A stretch of 64,000 nt of DNA, taken from a virus. Position numbers and translations under genes: made by a program. Shown piece after piece: positions 1,353-32,978 of the stretch. Every line of letters starts with the position of its first letter. The stretch's first letter is position 1. Under the pieces are notes generated by a model. The model was not told the origin of the DNA. It was given only the letters and a program-made list of their open reading frames with translations, and made no database searches. The stretch lies in the IMG/VR virus record IMGVR_UViG_3300009085_000022, positions 38,177 to 102,176 of that record. One strand, given 5' to 3'.

Positions 1353-1368
1353 ACTTAATATTTATTAG

Positions 1369-1440
1369 CTGTCCCTCAAGGATTCGAACCTCAACTCTCA
1401 GGTTCAAAACCTGATATGCTGACCATTACATAAAGGGACA
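1369..1440 (-). tRNA. tRNA-Gln (UUG)
   Basis: Acceptor TGTCCCT/AGGGACA; anticodon arm TCAGG-TTTTGAA-CCTGA; T loop TTCGAAT. Confidence 0.93.
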
Positions 1441-1443
1441 ATA

Positions 1444-1608
1444 AAGTAATTGTTGGAAAGAATAGTTTAGCGCGCAACAGCTATCTTTCTCTGATTATTT
1501 CTATCCGCAATCAGTAAAAGGAGACTCACCCATCCTTGATATTATCTTACCAGTCATCTACAGAGAAAAATGTCTCTTGTAGGGGAGTATTTGCTACAAC
1601 AATTACTT
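1444..1608 (-). ncRNA. Candidate multi-stem structured ncRNA between tRNA-Cys and tRNA-Gln
   Basis: 12-bp closing stem AAGTAATTGTTG/CAACAATTACTT enclosing 4-5 hairpins; no ORF in the track. Confidence 0.5.
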
Positions 1609-1610
1609 AG

Positions 1611-1682
1611 AGCCTCCGACTGGGCTCGAACCAGTACACACGGTTTTGCAGACCGCTACCTTAGCCATTTGGTTACAGAGGC
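1611..1682 (-). tRNA. tRNA-Cys (GCA)
   Basis: Acceptor GCCTCTG/CGGAGGC; anticodon arm GCGGT-CTGCAAA-ACCGT; TTCGAGC T loop. Confidence 0.93.
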
Positions 1683-1689
1683 GTATATA

Positions 1690-2274
1690 CTAAGGTATAT
1701 ATAAGTTAGTTGGATTATCTTTATGAATTTCAATATCTGGATATTTTGTATGAAAAGTCTGGACATTAAAAGGATGTGTAATCAAATGATTACCAGATTT
1801 TGATGGTAAAATAGCTACTAATTTATCATAGTTTCCTATTGGTTCGCAGTCAATATTAATAAACGCCATCATTATTGGAGATACTTGTTTATTATCTATA
1901 TCTAAAATCCAATAGGCGTTTTTTTCATTATGTCCTTGTCCTGTAGCTTTATCATAAGATTTGTTACAAAATGCGAATTCTTTATTAGAAATAGTATTTG
2001 CAAGATTAACCATACATTTATAAGCAGTCTTTTCAAAACTACGTTTATTTAATCTAAACATAGCCCTTGCATTAAAAACGTCACATAATTTAATAATCTC
2101 ATTTTCATGAGATAACAAATAATCTATAGATTTAATATAATAATTTCTTATTACATGTGAATTAGATCCAACTTCCTCATTCTCTTTTTTACGCTGTAAG
2201 ATTTGTAAAAAGTAAAAATCATCTTCGCTTGTAAAATTTAGAAGAGGAATTATTCGTTTAAAGTTATTTACCAT
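1690..2274 (-). CDS. Phage protein, possible archaeo-eukaryotic primase (AEP)-superfamily member
   Basis: WILDID (hhhDxD) and SGNHL (sxH) motifs in AEP order. Confidence 0.4.
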   Translation of the reverse strand: MVNNFKRIIPLLNFTSEDDFYFLQILQRKKENEEVGSNSHVIRNYYIKSIDYLLSHENEIIKLCDVFNARAMFRLNKRSFEKTAYKCMVNLANTISNKEFAFCNKSYDKATGQGHNEKNAYWILDIDNKQVSPIMMAFINIDCEPIGNYDKLVAILPSKSGNHLITHPFNVQTFHTKYPDIEIHKDNPTNLYIP

Positions 2275-2289
2275 AATTTTAAGTTTTAG

Positions 2290-2364
2290 GGTGATTGATG
2301 AGCTACGATCTCATTACCTTCAGATCCACAACCTGACGCTCTAACCAATTGAGCTACAATCACC
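2290..2364 (-). tRNA. tRNA-His (GUG), with encoded G-1 and atypical T loop
   Basis: GGTGATTG/CAATCACC acceptor; TCAGG-TTGTGGA-TCTGA anticodon arm; T loop ATCGTAG. Confidence 0.85.
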
Positions 2365-2371
2365 ATATTAG

Positions 2372-2445
2372 TAGAGACAGGAGGATTTGAACCTCCTACC
2401 TCCCGGATATCAGCCGGGTGCTCTAGCCAATTGAGCTATGTCTCT
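2372..2445 (-). tRNA. tRNA-Ile (GAU)
   Basis: AGAGACA/TGTCTCT acceptor; CCCGG-CTGATAT-CCGGG anticodon arm; TTCAAAT T loop. Confidence 0.93.
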
Positions 2446-2660
2446 AAAATTACCATAATCATTATCTGGGTAATTATTAATTATTTTTTTAATTTTTTGA
2501 TTTCTATCTTCTATAGTTTCAGAAGGTCGTAATGGCCTATTACATAAAAGATATAATTGGTAATCTTCTTCAATATTTTGTGGATATAATCTAAAATAAG
2601 ACAATCTTTTTAATAACGCCATAATTATTAATTTTAAAAACATTTATATTTTTATTAATG

Positions 2661-2731
2661 CAGAATGTGTGGGACTCGAACCCCTACTTCTCATAGACAG
2701 TGAGATATGTTACCATTACACTACACACTCT
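2661..2731 (-). tRNA. tRNA-Asp (GUC), imperfect T stem
   Basis: TCTCA-CTGTCTA-TGAGA anticodon arm; AGAGTGT/ACATTCT acceptor; TTCGAGT T loop. Confidence 0.78.
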
Positions 2732-2735
2732 AAAG

Positions 2736-2807
2736 TAGCGGAATTAGGATTTGAACCTAAGTCTTGAGCCTATGAAACTCACGAGTTAACCATTTCTCTA
2801 TTCCGCA
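2736..2807 (-). tRNA. tRNA-Met (CAU), initiator-like 1:72 mismatch
   Basis: TGCGGAA/TTCCGCT acceptor; TGAGT-TTCATAG-GCTCA anticodon arm; TTCAAAT T loop. Confidence 0.88.
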
Positions 2808-23789: not shown

Positions 23790-23811
23790 GATAATATTTT
23801 TTTAAAATTTG

Positions 23812-23896
23812 TACCACTGATAGGACTTGAACCTACACGACCATAAAGATCAAGGGATTTTAAGACCCTCTCGGCTACCAATTACGACACAGTGGC
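23812..23896 (-). tRNA. tRNA-Leu (UAA)
   Basis: GCCACTG/CAGTGGT acceptor; CTTAAAA anticodon loop; long variable arm; TTCAAGT T loop. Confidence 0.9.
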
Positions 23897-30771: not shown

Positions 30772-31297
30772 CAGATCACTTTTACTTAACGAGCTAAACC
30801 TAGCACATGTAGTTTTTAAATTTGCAGTATGTGATCTTATACAGGACAGAACGTGATTACTTAAAAGGTAATTGTTTTTAAAATTGCTAAACTGTCCTTA
30901 TCAGAGTTGTTTGTTTTCAATCTAATGCTCTACCAACTGAGCTATCTACCATCTTTAAGGTAGAACTGGAATCGAACCAGTGACCCATAGAACCTTGAGG
31001 ATTATTTTTAATTTGCTGAACAACTCTTATCAGGTGTCGGTTATTACTGTTTCAAAACCAAAATTTGAGAGTATATAATTTTTAATTTGCTGATGACACC
31101 TTATAACAGAATACGACTTTTTTTCTTTTAGCAGAAGAATTTTAAATTGCTGAATGTATTCTTAAAATTATGGAGATTTCTTTAAAGTTTTTGATATATA
31201 CACCATTTTACAGGTGGAAAGTATATACACCTCTTTCAATAAAGAAATTCTCCAATTTTTACATATATTTAGTATATATGTTGCTGATATCCACCTA
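30772..31297 (-). ncRNA. Tandem array of six Y-RNA-like units, four with tRNA-derived cargo
   Basis: Units 31211-31297, 31107-31163, 31031-31102, 30902-31028, 30842-30899, 30772-30838; each (A/T)AG-stem-(C/T)(A/T)GCAA ... stem'-CTG with compensatory changes. Confidence 0.8.
30914..30991 (-). ncRNA. Circularly permuted tRNA-Phe(GAA)-like domain (YrlA-like) inside array unit 4
   Basis: T arm ACTGG-TTCGATT-CCAGT precedes the D arm GCTC-AGTTGGTA-GAGC; acceptor TCTACC/GGTAGA closed by an 8-nt loop. Confidence 0.8.
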
Positions 31298-31301
31298 TTT
31301 A

Positions 31302-32978
31302 TTATATTGTTATCATTTGAATTATTTCCTGATCTAAAGCAGCATTAAATAATTCATCTGCTGTACTAGGAATTTTTGCAGATTTACCTTCTGTACCTAA
31401 TAAGAAAGTAATAACTGAACCATCAAATCCACTAAAATAAAATACATTCTTTGCCGGACCATAAGTTTCAAATTTAACTTTCTGATTACGTCCATAAAAC
31501 TCATTTCTTATATCCCAAAATACGAATTTGAAATCTTCAACAAATTTAGGAGATAATCCAGCAAACAATAAACGATGTTTAAATGCTTTTATATTAGTAG
31601 TATCATACATTTTAGTACGATCAAATTCACCATCAGATATTAATATAATACCAGTAGGAAATTCAGATTCAGGAACTCCGCTTTCATAAACTTGTACAAA
31701 TAAGTTAGCTACAGCTTCAAAATTTGTATTAGCAGATTCAACTCTATTTTCTGTAATCCAATGGTCATAAAAATTAACACCCTGTATTTTTCTTAAATAA
31801 GCAGTGGTACTAAAATCTATATAATGATTATGAAACCATCCCTGTATAAGATTACCAAAAAATATAGATAATGATTTAGCTATATGATATGAACTCATAT
31901 TAGTTCCAATAGCTATACTATTCATACTACCTGAAGTATCTTTTACAACAATAAAATTAGCATTAACTTTACCAGCTTTTTCTAATAATTGTTTATACTG
32001 AGCATTAATAGTATCAATTTGATATTTTTTAATGTTCCCAACTATTTTACTAGCTAGTTCATATACATATCCTGTAAATTTAGCAACTGGTTTAGTACTG
32101 ATCCAAGTTTCGTACTTCGCTTCAAGACCATTATTTGCTAAAAACTTAGAAGATACTAATTGACTTAAAGCTCTACCATGAATAGTATTAAAATCAATTT
32201 CTAACATACGGCCCTGACTTATTAACTGTTGCCAGGAATGAGCCGTACCAGAAACTTTTAATTTCCTATATTTAACATAGTTATAATGCTTTTCATCAGG
32301 AGTTTTACCACCAAATAATAAACTACAAATATATTTTGCAATCATATTATCAGCCTGAGACTCAACTGTTGTACATTTAGAATGTGCTTTAATTTGAGGT
32401 AAATATTTCTTTATAAGATTATTAGTATTAGGATTTTCTAATCCTACTAATATTAATCTACCAAATTTATCCCAATTTAAAACTTTACCATTCCAACCAT
32501 GAAATATTAAATCATATTGTAACATTACAATTATATCTTTCCAAGAGCCTACAGATATAAATATATGTATATTTTTCCAGAAAGAATCTTCATGATTAAT
32601 AGCTATCCAAAGCATACGAAGAATGCCTTCATGCTTTAAACCGGCTCCTTTTTGTACTTCTTTAGTTTTCAAATTGTCAAACAATGATACAATACGGGTA
32701 ATCATTCTGATATAAATAGTAAACATAATAGTTACTAAAGGATTTAACCCCCATAGAATAGCCATATCTTTCTCAATCTCTAAGTATTTACGAGGCTCTT
32801 TATATCTACCAACCTGACCAAACTGATCTACAAATTCATTTCCTGTAGAATTAAATTTCATAGCATCATTGCCTGAACGCACTTTAGCTGATTTTCTCAT
32901 ACCAGCATTTAAAAATGAATTCTTATCTGATTTAACAGATGCTGTTCCTAATAAGGAAGATTTTTTACTTTCAAACAT
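31302..32978 (-). CDS. TROVE/DUF2828-like (Ro60-related) helical protein with C-terminal vWA domain
   Basis: Helical N-domain (STGNEFVDQF, GAGLK, GSWKD, KYLP); vWA MIDAS DTSGSM, NTNF, ILISDGEFD, FWD, SGFD. Confidence 0.75.
   Translation of the reverse strand: MFESKKSSLLGTASVKSDKNSFLNAGMRKSAKVRSGNDAMKFNSTGNEFVDQFGQVGRYKEPRKYLEIEKDMAILWGLNPLVTIMFTIYIRMITRIVSLFDNLKTKEVQKGAGLKHEGILRMLWIAINHEDSFWKNIHIFISVGSWKDIIVMLQYDLIFHGWNGKVLNWDKFGRLILVGLENPNTNNLIKKYLPQIKAHSKCTTVESQADNMIAKYICSLLFGGKTPDEKHYNYVKYRKLKVSGTAHSWQQLISQGRMLEIDFNTIHGRALSQLVSSKFLANNGLEAKYETWISTKPVAKFTGYVYELASKIVGNIKKYQIDTINAQYKQLLEKAGKVNANFIVVKDTSGSMNSIAIGTNMSSYHIAKSLSIFFGNLIQGWFHNHYIDFSTTAYLRKIQGVNFYDHWITENRVESANTNFEAVANLFVQVYESGVPESEFPTGIILISDGEFDRTKMYDTTNIKAFKHRLLFAGLSPKFVEDFKFVFWDIRNEFYGRNQKVKFETYGPAKNVFYFSGFDGSVITFLLGTEGKSAKIPSTADELFNAALDQEIIQMITI

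What the first reader, a model, noticed from the sequence alone, without database searches (positions are those of the whole stretch)
30856..31139. Array cargoes are bare anticodon stem-loops (Ser-GCU, Gln-UUG, Lys-UUU): possible decoys for anticodon nucleases
Seen on the minus strand: three units each hold a perfect 5-bp stem plus 7-nt loop with canonical Y32-U33-NNN-R37 geometry. They are TTCTT-CTGCTAA-AAGAA (31123-31139, Ser GCU), TCAAA-TTTTGGT-TTTGA (31052-31068, Gln UUG) and ATTAC-CTTTTAA-GTAAT (30856-30872, Lys UUU). None has D, T or acceptor arms, so none can be charged. Known: anti-phage anticodon nucleases cut such loops; PrrC and PARIS AriB both cleave tRNA-Lys(UUU). Inference: these RNAs are protein-stabilised decoys or inhibitors of host tRNA-cleaving defences, or they titrate anticodon-modifying enzymes. 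The phage's own full tRNA-Gln has a different loop (UUUUGAA versus UUUUGGU), which would fit a resistant replacement plus a host-like decoy.
Basis: partly seen in the sequence, partly recalled or inferred. Interest (0 to 1): 0.88.

Follow-up and report, generated by a model that had tools for sequence, protein, structure and literature searches.

The report
Anticodon-arm mimics on phage Y-like RNAs
Three small RNAs behind a crAss-like phage's Ro60-shaped protein gene each hold out a bare copy of a tRNA anticodon hairpin (two with exactly the loop of the likely host phylum's tRNA-Lys and tRNA-Gln), a design that recurs far above chance in related phages and may bait proteins that read or cut tRNA anticodons, though that role is untested.

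Summary
All three 5-bp/7-nt hairpins sit at the stated coordinates. Each is the variable "cargo" of one unit in a six-unit array of handle RNAs. The handle is a closing stem, then CAGCAA-AUUAAAA, then the cargo, then the 3' stem arm and UGAUAAG. The array begins a few bases after a 558-aa gene whose model folds like Ro60.

The design generalises. In 86 short-cargo units from 30 related arrays, 21 best hairpins have the Y32-U33-NNN-R37 frame, against about 0.5 expected. Twenty-three carry a loop identical to a real tRNA anticodon loop, again against about 0.5 expected.

The phage is crAss-like. In six sampled Bacteroidota genomes, tRNA-Gln(UUG) has the loop UUUUGGU; in four, tRNA-Lys(UUU) has CUUUUAA. 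These are exactly the loops of units 2 and 4. The phage's own tRNA-Gln has UUUUGAA. Only the loops are copied, never the stems.

Among CU-NNN-AA cargoes, 19 of 31 carry UUU, UGU or CGU, the published target set of the PARIS nuclease AriB.

The decoy function itself stays untested, and "resistant replacement plus decoy" does not hold in the other phages checked. The scan has noted this system before on other DNA. I found no paper on it.

The parts
31302..32978 (-). 558-aa Ro60-like protein (DUF7788 plus weak DUF2828; TROVE-like ring plus vWA domain with a conserved MIDAS motif). Presumed partner of the RNAs.
   Evidence: Pfam DUF7788 at 3e-10 and PHROG 850 'RNA-binding protein' at 3.5e-27. The AF2 model has pLDDT 82.5. 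The top 12 listed Foldseek PDB hits are all Ro60/TROVE structures, with E from 3e-7 to 2e-4. D347, S349, S351, T418 and D449 are invariant in 39 homologs.
31213..31295 (-). Array unit 0: handle GGUGGA..CAGCAA..UCCACC-UG with a long cargo that is not anticodon-like.
   Evidence: Unit finder; sequence read.
31109..31161 (-). Array unit 1: handle GAAUAC..CAGCAA..GUAUUC-UG. The cargo hairpin at 31123-31139 is UUCUU-CUGCUAA-AAGAA, a Ser-GCU-type loop.
   Evidence: Rfam Dicty_Class_I_RNA scores 37.3 bits, below its gathering score of 41.5. The loop is identical to that of a phage tRNA-Ser(GCU). The one sampled Bacteroidota tRNA-Ser(GCU) has UUGCUAA.
31033..31100 (-). Array unit 2: handle GGUGUC..CAGCAA..GACACC-UGAUAAG. 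The cargo hairpin at 31052-31068 is UCAAA-UUUUGGU-UUUGA, a Gln-UUG-type loop.
   Evidence: the MFE fold keeps the hairpin. The loop is identical to tRNA-Gln(UUG) of 6 Bacteroidota genomes, one cyanobacterium and Sulfurimonas. The same stem type with an N3-5+GGU loop occurs in 10 other loci.
30904..31026 (-). Array unit 3: handle plus a circularly permuted tRNA body. The order is anticodon-stem 3' strand, T arm, acceptor stem closed by a loop, D arm, anticodon-stem 5' strand, then UUGAAAA. The build is YrlA-like.
   Evidence: Rfam YrlA scores 35.9 bits (E 6e-6, below the gathering score of 69) and Rfam tRNA scores 24 bits. Sequence read.
30844..30897 (-). Array unit 4: handle GGACAG..UAGCAA..CUGUCC-UGUAUAAG. 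The cargo hairpin at 30856-30872 is AUUAC-CUUUUAA-GUAAU, a Lys-UUU-type loop.
   Evidence: The loop is identical to tRNA-Lys(UUU) of 4 Bacteroidota genomes. It is one of 12 UUU-loop cargoes (10 CUUUUAA, 2 CUUUUAU) on 12 different stems.
30774..30836 (-). Array unit 5: handle GAUCAC..CUGCAA..GUGAUC-UG with a cargo that is not anticodon-like.
   Evidence: Rfam Dicty_Class_I_RNA scores 22.9 bits.
1368..1440 (-). The phage's own full tRNA-Gln(UUG), with anticodon arm UCAGG-UUUUGAA-CCUGA. Listed for comparison.
   Evidence: ARAGORN.

Best explanation
The three hairpins are deliberate mimics of tRNA anticodon arms. Each is the exchangeable cargo module of a small Y-RNA-like transcript. The constant handle of that transcript (a closing stem starting with G, the single-stranded CAGCAA-AUUAAAA motif, and the 3' C-UGAUAA tail) is most likely held by the Ro60-shaped protein encoded directly upstream.

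The array is probably transcribed together with the gene and cut at the regular 6-8-nt UGAUAA-type linkers into separate RNAs. Each protein-RNA particle would then display a bare, uncharged anticodon loop of host type: Lys-UUU, Gln-UUG and Ser-GCU, plus a whole permuted tRNA body in unit 3.

I think the most likely use is as bait for proteins that recognise the anticodon loop. First among these are host tRNA-cutting defence nucleases, which the particle would occupy or inhibit. That would spare the host tRNAs this phage depends on.

What is shown: the hairpins, their frame, their enrichment, the loop identity to real tRNAs, the Ro60-like fold, and the gene-array linkage. What is inferred: that the protein binds the handle, that the array is processed, and that the cargoes act as bait or decoy.
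For: 1. Frame enrichment. 21 of 86 cargoes have the Y32-U33-NNN-R37 frame, against about 0.5 in shuffles and in natural windows.

2. Exact loop identity to real tRNAs. 18 of 86 match a set of 38 cellular loops, against 0.23 +/- 0.43 expected. 23 of 86 match 90 phage plus cellular loops, against 0.53 expected.

3. Host-type loops. The phage is crAss-like. Bacteroidota tRNA-Gln is UUUUGGU in 6 of 6 genomes and tRNA-Lys is CUUUUAA in 4 of 4.

4. Selection acts on the loop and not the stem. Twelve UUU-loop cargoes (10 CUUUUAA, 2 CUUUUAU) sit on 12 different stems. Frame positions 32, 33, 37 and 38 vary less than positions 34-36.

5. The triplet spectrum is skewed. UUU occurs 12 times, UGU 4 and CGU 3 among 31 units. 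These are the tRNAs that AriB cleaves (PMC12409363). tRNA-Lys(UUU) is also the PrrC target, which is established knowledge.

6. Need. AAA is the phage's most used codon, at 64 per 1000. Yet the complete 102-kb genome has no tRNA-Lys. It also has no RtcB, Rnl2 or Rnl1 RNA ligase for repair.

7. Partner protein. The fold is Ro60-like. Chained arrays lie on the gene strand in 30 of 82 loci and on the opposite strand in none. The same handle sits beside DUF2828 genes in Listeria P100, Staphylococcus 6ec, Bacillus Tsamsa and Enterococcus A2 phages.
Against: - There are no expression, binding or cleavage data.
- The hairpins are thermodynamically marginal. Whole-unit MFE folds of units 1 and 4 prefer other pairings, with the A-rich handle pairing to the U-rich loop.
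- The stems copy no tRNA. AriB cuts in the stem at 40|41 and needs contacts outside the anticodon arm. At least that nuclease may therefore ignore such mimics.
- Only 36 of 153 units are anticodon-like. 58 carry a T-loop and others carry something else. The system's role may be wider than nuclease decoys.
- Related loci are not independent samples.
- The host is inferred only at phylum level.
Confidence: 0.4

Rival explanations
1. Adaptor model, as for classical Y RNAs. The anticodon-arm cargo recruits a tRNA-binding enzyme to the Ro60-like ring. The enzyme could be an aminoacyl-tRNA synthetase, a processing or decay nuclease, or a repair factor. The particle would then work in RNA quality control or turnover rather than as a decoy.
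For: - Ro60 with Y RNA tethers effector proteins, and YrlA mimics tRNA (PMC4201824).
- Unit 3 is YrlA-like.
- Most arrays mix anticodon-like and T-loop cargoes.
- DUF2828 genes often lie in tRNA clusters or next to an RNA ligase in distant phages.
- tmRNA and tRNA genes follow the arrays in L002, L005 and L020.
Against: - This phage has no RNA ligase.
- A single adaptor task would not need many different, fast-changing triplets.
Confidence: 0.25
2. The mimics titrate or hijack enzymes that modify position 37 or 34 of the anticodon loop. Candidates are t6A37 for NNU-A37 loops, m1G37 by TrmD for G36-G37 loops, and i6A37 for NNA-A37 loops. This would change host tRNA modification during infection.
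For: The loops obey the tRNA 36/37 rule. 27 of 31 CU-NNN-A-A/U loops have U36 before A37, and the other four have A36 before A37. The second class keeps G36-G37-U38. These contexts are the known determinants of those enzymes, which is established knowledge.
Against: - The same pattern follows from plain mimicry of real loops.
- Several of these enzymes need more than an anticodon arm.
- No modification gene is linked to the array in this phage.
Confidence: 0.1
3. The hairpins are evolutionary leftovers of tRNA-derived cargo, or act through base pairing. Pairing could be loop to A-rich handle, or loop to codon-like sequences. There would be no protein that reads them as anticodon arms.
For: - Whole-unit MFE folds pair the handle's UUUUAAA with the CUUUUAAG loop in unit 4.
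- Cargoes with tRNA bodies show that tRNA genes were the raw material.
Against: - Loops stay identical while stems diverge completely.
- The A-rich handle is the same whatever the loop, so the two do not co-vary.
- Enrichment over natural windows is about 35-fold.
Confidence: 0.1
4. The three hairpins are chance products of AT-rich sequence.
For: The stems are AU-rich and weak. Single-hairpin z-scores are modest, from -0.8 to -3.3.
Against: Family-wide enrichment and exact loop matches lie far above both controls.
Confidence: 0.02

Closest known systems
Ro60 (Rsr) with Y RNAs, especially bacterial and phage YrlA/YrlB (Rfam RF02553; Chen et al. 2014, PMC4201824; Thermus phage phiLo Ro60, PMC12135203)
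   Same: A ring-shaped TROVE+vWA-fold protein is encoded next to small RNAs whose paired ends form a protein handle. The distal module of those RNAs mimics tRNA. Unit 3 here has the YrlA order of T arm, closed acceptor stem and D arm.
   Different: - The protein is DUF7788/DUF2828, not Pfam TROVE, and is similar to Ro60 by fold only.
- The handle is a short stem plus single-stranded CAGCAA, not the Ro60-binding bulged helix.
- The RNAs come as a chained array of 3-10 units.
- Many units display only an anticodon arm, the one tRNA part that YrlA lacks.
Phage-encoded nuclease-resistant tRNAs (T5 tRNA-Lys, tRNA-Thr and tRNA-Asn against PARIS AriB; PMC11464382, PMC12409363)
   Same: This is a phage answer to tRNA-targeting immunity. 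The same tRNA identities dominate (Lys-UUU, Thr-UGU, Thr-CGU). This phage's own tRNA-Gln differs from the host type at positions 37-38.
   Different: Those are full, chargeable tRNAs that replace the cleaved ones. The RNAs here cannot be charged, and they keep the host-type loop rather than a resistant one.
Dictyostelium Class I RNAs (Rfam RF01414; Kjellin et al. 2021, PMC7919456)
   Same: Both start with a 5' G and have a roughly 6-bp terminal stem. Both have the (CCUUA)CAGCAA motif next to the 5' arm, a variable middle part and a 3' C-UG(U). Three units here hit the model at 37.3, 29.3 and 22.9 bits.
   Different: All hits are below the gathering score of 41.5. The Class I RNAs are single eukaryotic genes with their own promoter, reported as unique to dictyostelids. 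Their known binder is the RRM protein Rnp1A. No anticodon-like cargo is described for them.
Anticodon-arm mimics in mRNA leaders, such as the E. coli thrS operator bound by ThrRS (established knowledge, not tested here)
   Same: An isolated stem-loop copies the anticodon arm of a tRNA (Thr, CGU) and is read by a protein that normally reads the tRNA.
   Different: That mimic is a cis-acting translational operator. It is not a protein-held trans-acting RNA and not part of an array with swappable triplets.

Membership tests
tRNA anticodon stem-loop (mimicry, not tRNA membership) | 5-bp stem closing a 7-nt loop | tested here: met
   All three hairpins meet this. Across the family the commonest stem length is 5 bp, and 28 of 86 best hairpins have 7-nt loops against about 6.5 expected.
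tRNA anticodon stem-loop (mimicry, not tRNA membership) | Y32, U33 and R37 frame | tested here: met
   Met in 3 of 3 hairpins here. Across the family, U33 occurs in 25 of 28 loops, Y32 in 24 of 28 and R37 in 24 of 28.
tRNA anticodon stem-loop (mimicry, not tRNA membership) | Loop sequence identical to that of a real tRNA of the presumed host phylum | tested here: met
   CUUUUAA equals Bacteroidota tRNA-Lys(UUU) and UUUUGGU equals Bacteroidota tRNA-Gln(UUG). CUGCUAA matches a phage tRNA-Ser(GCU) but differs at position 32 from the one Bacteroidota example.
tRNA anticodon stem-loop (mimicry, not tRNA membership) | Stem sequence copied from a tRNA | tested here: not met
   None of 80 fetched exact matches of the Lys-like 17-mer in genome contigs lies in a tRNA. 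The stems differ from all sampled tRNAs.
Functional tRNA | Acceptor, D and T arms | tested here: not met
   ARAGORN finds none in the array. Units 1, 2 and 4 are 53-68 nt, handle included.
YrlA / bacterial Y RNA (RF02553) | Score at or above the Rfam gathering threshold | tested here: not met
   Only unit 3 matches, at 35.9 bits against 69, covering model positions 23-88. The three hairpin units do not match.
YrlA / bacterial Y RNA (RF02553) | Encoded beside a Ro60 ortholog | tested here: inconclusive
   The neighbour has a Ro60-like predicted fold but gives no Pfam TROVE hit.
YrlA / bacterial Y RNA (RF02553) | Bound by the Ro60 protein | not testable with these tools
   This needs co-purification or a structure.
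Dictyostelium Class I RNA (RF01414) | Score at or above the Rfam gathering threshold | tested here: not met
   The units score 37.3, 29.3 and 22.9 bits against 41.5. No hit passes in 20 related loci.
Ro60 / TROVE protein | TROVE ring plus a vWA domain with a MIDAS motif | tested here: met
   By fold only: the top 12 listed Foldseek hits are Ro60/TROVE structures. The DxSxS..T..D residues are invariant in 39 homologs. A sequence search of the PDB finds nothing.
Decoy or inhibitor of anticodon nucleases (functional class) | Bound or cut by, or protective against, an anticodon nuclease | not testable with these tools
   Support is circumstantial only: the triplet spectrum compared with the AriB targets.

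The most novel reading that the evidence does not exclude
Phages use a Ro60-like protein to hold retargetable RNA baits. A constant handle carries a swappable host-type anticodon loop that neutralises tRNA-cutting immune nucleases. This would be an RNA-based anti-defence system that is reprogrammed by changing three letters. It would be related in build to the unexplained Class I RNAs of social amoebae.
Probability: 0.3. Interest if true: 0.9.

Novelty: new variant of a known kind. Interest (0 to 1): 0.72.

Why it matters
tRNA cleavage is now recognised as a widespread anti-phage strategy (PrrC, RloC, PARIS, retrons, Schlafen-like nucleases). The known phage answers are tRNA repair and nuclease-resistant replacement tRNAs.

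A protein-held display of bare, host-type anticodon loops would be a third answer. It is modular, since the triplet changes while the frame and handle stay. It would also give the tRNA mimicry of Y RNAs a concrete purpose, which has been an open question since YrlA was described.

The system is compact: one gene plus RNAs of about 55 nt. It occurs beside cultured Listeria, Staphylococcus, Bacillus and Enterococcus phage genes and is directly testable. Even if the decoy idea fails, the result defines an uncatalogued RNA family whose cargo is under clear selection.

Tried and rejected
- Searching viral contigs with the single protein found no relatives. The alignment query was needed.
- My first two unit finders failed. 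One picked long-range stems and the other over-extended stems. They were replaced.
- MFE folding of whole units is unreliable in this AU-rich RNA, because the handle pairs with cargo. I therefore used direct hairpin enumeration with two controls.
- I first read the UUUUGGU class as 'not really Gln', because the triplet varies among relatives. I withdrew that reading after finding UUUUGGU as the genuine tRNA-Gln loop of Bacteroidota and others, and UUUAGGU as a genuine tRNA-Leu(UAG) loop.
- An ARAGORN 'tRNA-Gln' at L029:4690-4760 looks like an array-type unit itself and was removed from the reference set.
- The Rfam gathering-threshold scan of 20 loci found only tRNAs and tmRNAs.
- RtcB, Rnl2 and Rnl1 searches in the phage genome gave no hit. 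The Rnl1 control also failed to ring anywhere, so that negative result is weak.
- A general test of 'replacement tRNA plus decoy' found no consistent pattern.
- I could not learn whether dictyostelids encode a DUF2828 protein. Avesson et al. 2011 is not held, and the protein atlas returned only viral clusters.
- Paper searches for DUF2828, for anticodon-nuclease decoys and for anticodon-arm mimics with Ro60 found no description of these RNAs.

Full report
**What is there.**
On the minus strand, a 558-aa ORF (31302-32978) ends a few bases before a co-oriented row of six small units (31295 to 30774). Every unit has the same build:
- a 5-8-bp closing stem that starts with G;
- 0-3 linker bases, then (C/U)(A/U)GCAA followed by an A/U-rich tract (AUUAAAA);
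- a variable cargo;
- the 3' arm of the stem, ending in C;
- UG(A/U)(U)AUAA, whose following G starts the next unit.

The three hairpins of the finding are the cargoes of units 1, 2 and 4. Unit 3 carries a circularly permuted tRNA body (Rfam YrlA 35.9 bits, below threshold). Units 0 and 5 carry other cargo. ARAGORN finds no tRNA in the array. The array is the only place in the complete 102,176-bp phage genome with such units.

**The neighbouring protein.**
- Pfam gives DUF7788 (3e-10) and a weak DUF2828 hit. PHROG 850 is annotated 'RNA-binding protein'.
- A sequence search of the PDB finds nothing.
- An AlphaFold2 model built on 39 homologs has pLDDT 82.5. Its top 12 listed Foldseek hits are all Ro60/TROVE structures: Xenopus and human Ro60, Deinococcus Rsr and Thermus phage phiLo Ro60. 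E-values run from 3e-7 to 2e-4 and TM-scores from 0.35 to 0.55.
- The MIDAS residues of the vWA domain (D347, S349, S351, T418, D449) are invariant.

So the protein has a Ro60-like fold without being a Pfam TROVE member.

**Linkage of gene and array.**
- In 80 IMG/VR loci with a homolog (42-58% identity), plus the Leptolyngbya phage Lbo-JY46 locus and the window itself (82 loci in all), chained arrays of at least three units lie on the gene strand in 30 loci. None lies on the opposite strand. This gives 153 unique units, 3-10 per array.
- The same handle sits beside DUF2828 genes in very distant cultured phages: Listeria P100, Staphylococcus 6ec, Bacillus Tsamsa and Enterococcus A2.
- Earlier notes of this scan report the same protein-RNA pairing in more than 100 other genomes and the anticodon-like cargo in about 25. 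I reached my reading before seeing them and tested it independently.

**Is the anticodon-arm reading more than chance?**
I took the 86 unique units with cargo of 50 nt or less and enumerated every hairpin with a stem of at least 4 bp and a loop of 3-10 nt. I kept the best one per unit, with ties broken against 7-nt loops.

| Measure (of 86 units) | Observed | Dinucleotide shuffles | Natural non-array windows |
|---|---|---|---|
| Best hairpin has a 7-nt loop | 28 | 6.8 +/- 2.5 | 6.4 +/- 2.4 |
| Loop is Y32-U33-NNN-R37 | 21 | 0.48 +/- 0.70 (max 3 of 300) | 0.60 +/- 0.81 (max 4) |

An MFE-based version gave the same answer. Within the 28 loops, U33 is present in 25, Y32 in 24, R37 in 24 and A38 in 20. 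Positions 34-36 vary most. The commonest stem length is 5 bp.

A sharper test asks how many units carry a hairpin whose 7-nt loop is identical to a real tRNA anticodon loop.
- With 38 distinct loops from cellular tRNAs, 18 of 86 match, against 0.23 +/- 0.43 expected (max 2).
- With 90 phage plus cellular loops, 23 of 86 match, against 0.53 +/- 0.72 expected (max 4).

**Comparison with host-type tRNAs.**
The major capsid protein is 34-35% identical to crAss-like phages of Bacteroides, Cellulophaga and Flavobacterium, so a Bacteroidota host is likely. I fetched real tRNA genes from Bacteroidota and other genomes.
- tRNA-Gln(UUG) has the loop UUUUGGU in six sampled Bacteroidota genomes: Flavobacterium, Prevotellaceae, Dysgonomonadaceae, Bacteroidales, Saprospiraceae and Tenacibaculum.
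- The same loop occurs in a cyanobacterium and in Sulfurimonas. Proteus has UUUUGAU.
- tRNA-Lys(UUU) has CUUUUAA in all four sampled Bacteroidota genomes.
- tRNA-Ser(GCU) has UUGCUAA in the one Bacteroidota example and CUGCUAA in a phage tRNA.

So the loops of units 2 and 4 are letter-for-letter host-phylum loops, and unit 1 differs at most at position 32.

The stems are never copied. The 17-mer of unit 4 has many exact genomic matches, but none of the 80 fetched lies in a tRNA gene. All sampled tRNA stems differ.

**Two cargo classes.**
- Class 1 is CU-NNN-A-(A/U), with 31 unique units.
  - Triplets: UUU 12 (on 12 different stems), UGU 4, CGU 3, CAU 2, CUU 2, GUA 2, UCU 2, and ACA, GAU, GCA and GCU once each.
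  - Position 36 is U in 27 of 31.
- Class 2 keeps a UCAA(A)/(U)UUGA stem with a loop ending in GGU.
  - UUUUGGU occurs four times, identical to real tRNA-Gln.
  - UUUAGGU occurs once, identical to a real tRNA-Leu(UAG).
  - Other variants are also seen.

Identical loops on fully diverged stems, and single-letter triplet switches on an otherwise identical hairpin, argue for selection on the loop and for retargeting. An example of such a switch is UUCUA-CUUUUAA-UGGAA in L001 against UUCUA-CUUGUAA-UGGAA in L016.

**Function.**
The published AriB target set is Lys-UUU > Thr-UGU > Asn-GUU and Thr-CGU (PMC12409363). UUU, UGU and CGU together account for 19 of 31 class-1 cargoes.

The phage's most used codon is AAA, at 64 per 1000. 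Yet the phage encodes only seven tRNAs, none for Lys or Ser, and no detectable RNA ligase. It therefore depends on host tRNA-Lys and cannot repair it by known routes. This fits a bait or decoy for anticodon-reading nucleases. It is still circumstantial.

Points that count against a simple decoy:
- AriB cuts in the stem at 40|41 and needs contacts outside the anticodon arm.
- The hairpins are weak, at -2.0, -2.0 and -0.7 kcal/mol. Whole-unit MFE folds keep only the unit 2 hairpin.
- Only 36 of 153 units are anticodon-like, while 58 carry a T-loop.
- 'Resistant replacement plus decoy' is not a rule. The L043 phage has a tRNA-Thr(UGU) with the same loop as its mimic. The L011 phage lacks tRNA-Thr(CGU). 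The L005 phage lacks tRNA-Lys.

The main rivals are a Y-RNA-type adaptor that recruits a tRNA-binding enzyme, titration of position-37 modification enzymes, and loops that act by base pairing.

**Comparison with what is known.**
- The closest system is Ro60 with YrlA-type Y RNAs (PMC4201824). It shares the ring-protein fold, the end-paired RNA and the tRNA mimicry. It differs in protein family, handle, array organisation and the anticodon-arm-only cargo. The units fail the Rfam thresholds for YrlA and for tRNA.
- The handle has the same build as the Dictyostelium Class I RNAs: a 5' G, a roughly 6-bp stem, CCUUACAGCAA and a 3' CUGU (PMC7919456). Three units hit that model below threshold. I could not test whether dictyostelids have a DUF2828 protein.
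- I found no paper describing these RNAs or any RNA decoy of anticodon nucleases.

**Verdict.**
The structural reading, that these are anticodon-arm mimics with host-type loops on Y-like RNAs, is well supported. The decoy function is plausible but untested. I class it as a new variant of the Ro60/Y-RNA kind.

Noticed in passing
L271 (Tenacibaculum skagerrakense, G009:C1:496499-499527): One locus holds a tRNA cluster whose Gln, Leu(UAG) and Pro loops have A37 (UUUUGAU, UUUAGAA, UUUGGAU). The same genome's other tRNA-Gln has G37 (UUUUGGU). The window phage's tRNA-Gln likewise has A37-A38. Mobile or phage-type tRNA sets may systematically replace G37.
   Followed up: no
window 1368-2806 and 23811-23896: Several of the phage's seven tRNAs have unusual loop positions 37-38 compared with the sampled cellular loops: Gln UUUUGAA, Asp CUGUCUA, Met UUCAUAG and Ile CUGAUAU. 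The array's mimics keep canonical host-type loops. The cellular reference set was incomplete (no His or Ile).
   Followed up: partly
L002:5317-5659, L005:5422-5781, L020:5306-5708: Phage-encoded tmRNA genes lie just downstream of the handle-RNA arrays in three related loci and are followed by tRNA genes.
   Followed up: no
window 31163-31184 and 31240-31261: A 22-nt imperfect inverted repeat (73% complementary) links the inside of unit 0 to the spacer before unit 1. Unit 0 may have a larger or alternative fold.
   Followed up: no
L029:4690-4760: ARAGORN calls a 'tRNA-Gln' here that looks like an array-type unit: a closing stem read as acceptor stem, a CAGCAG motif and a UUUUGGU hairpin. Automatic annotation may mislabel such units as tRNAs.
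   Followed up: partly
L082:1890-2190, L083:3800-4030, L084:1990-2470, L087:1120-1560: Cultured phages Listeria P100, Staphylococcus 6ec, Bacillus Tsamsa and Enterococcus A2 carry 2-3 handle RNAs (7-bp stem, UAACAGCAA, 3' CUGU or UGAUA) directly beside their DUF2828 genes. The middle Enterococcus unit has a CAGCGA variant and a YrlA-like permuted tRNA. These phages offer experimentally tractable systems.
   Followed up: partly
L016:2936-3049: One array unit in a related phage carries a whole tRNA in normal, non-permuted order as cargo (Rfam tRNA 53.4 bits). Its anticodon-loop position reads UGGUAAA, which lacks U33.
   Followed up: no
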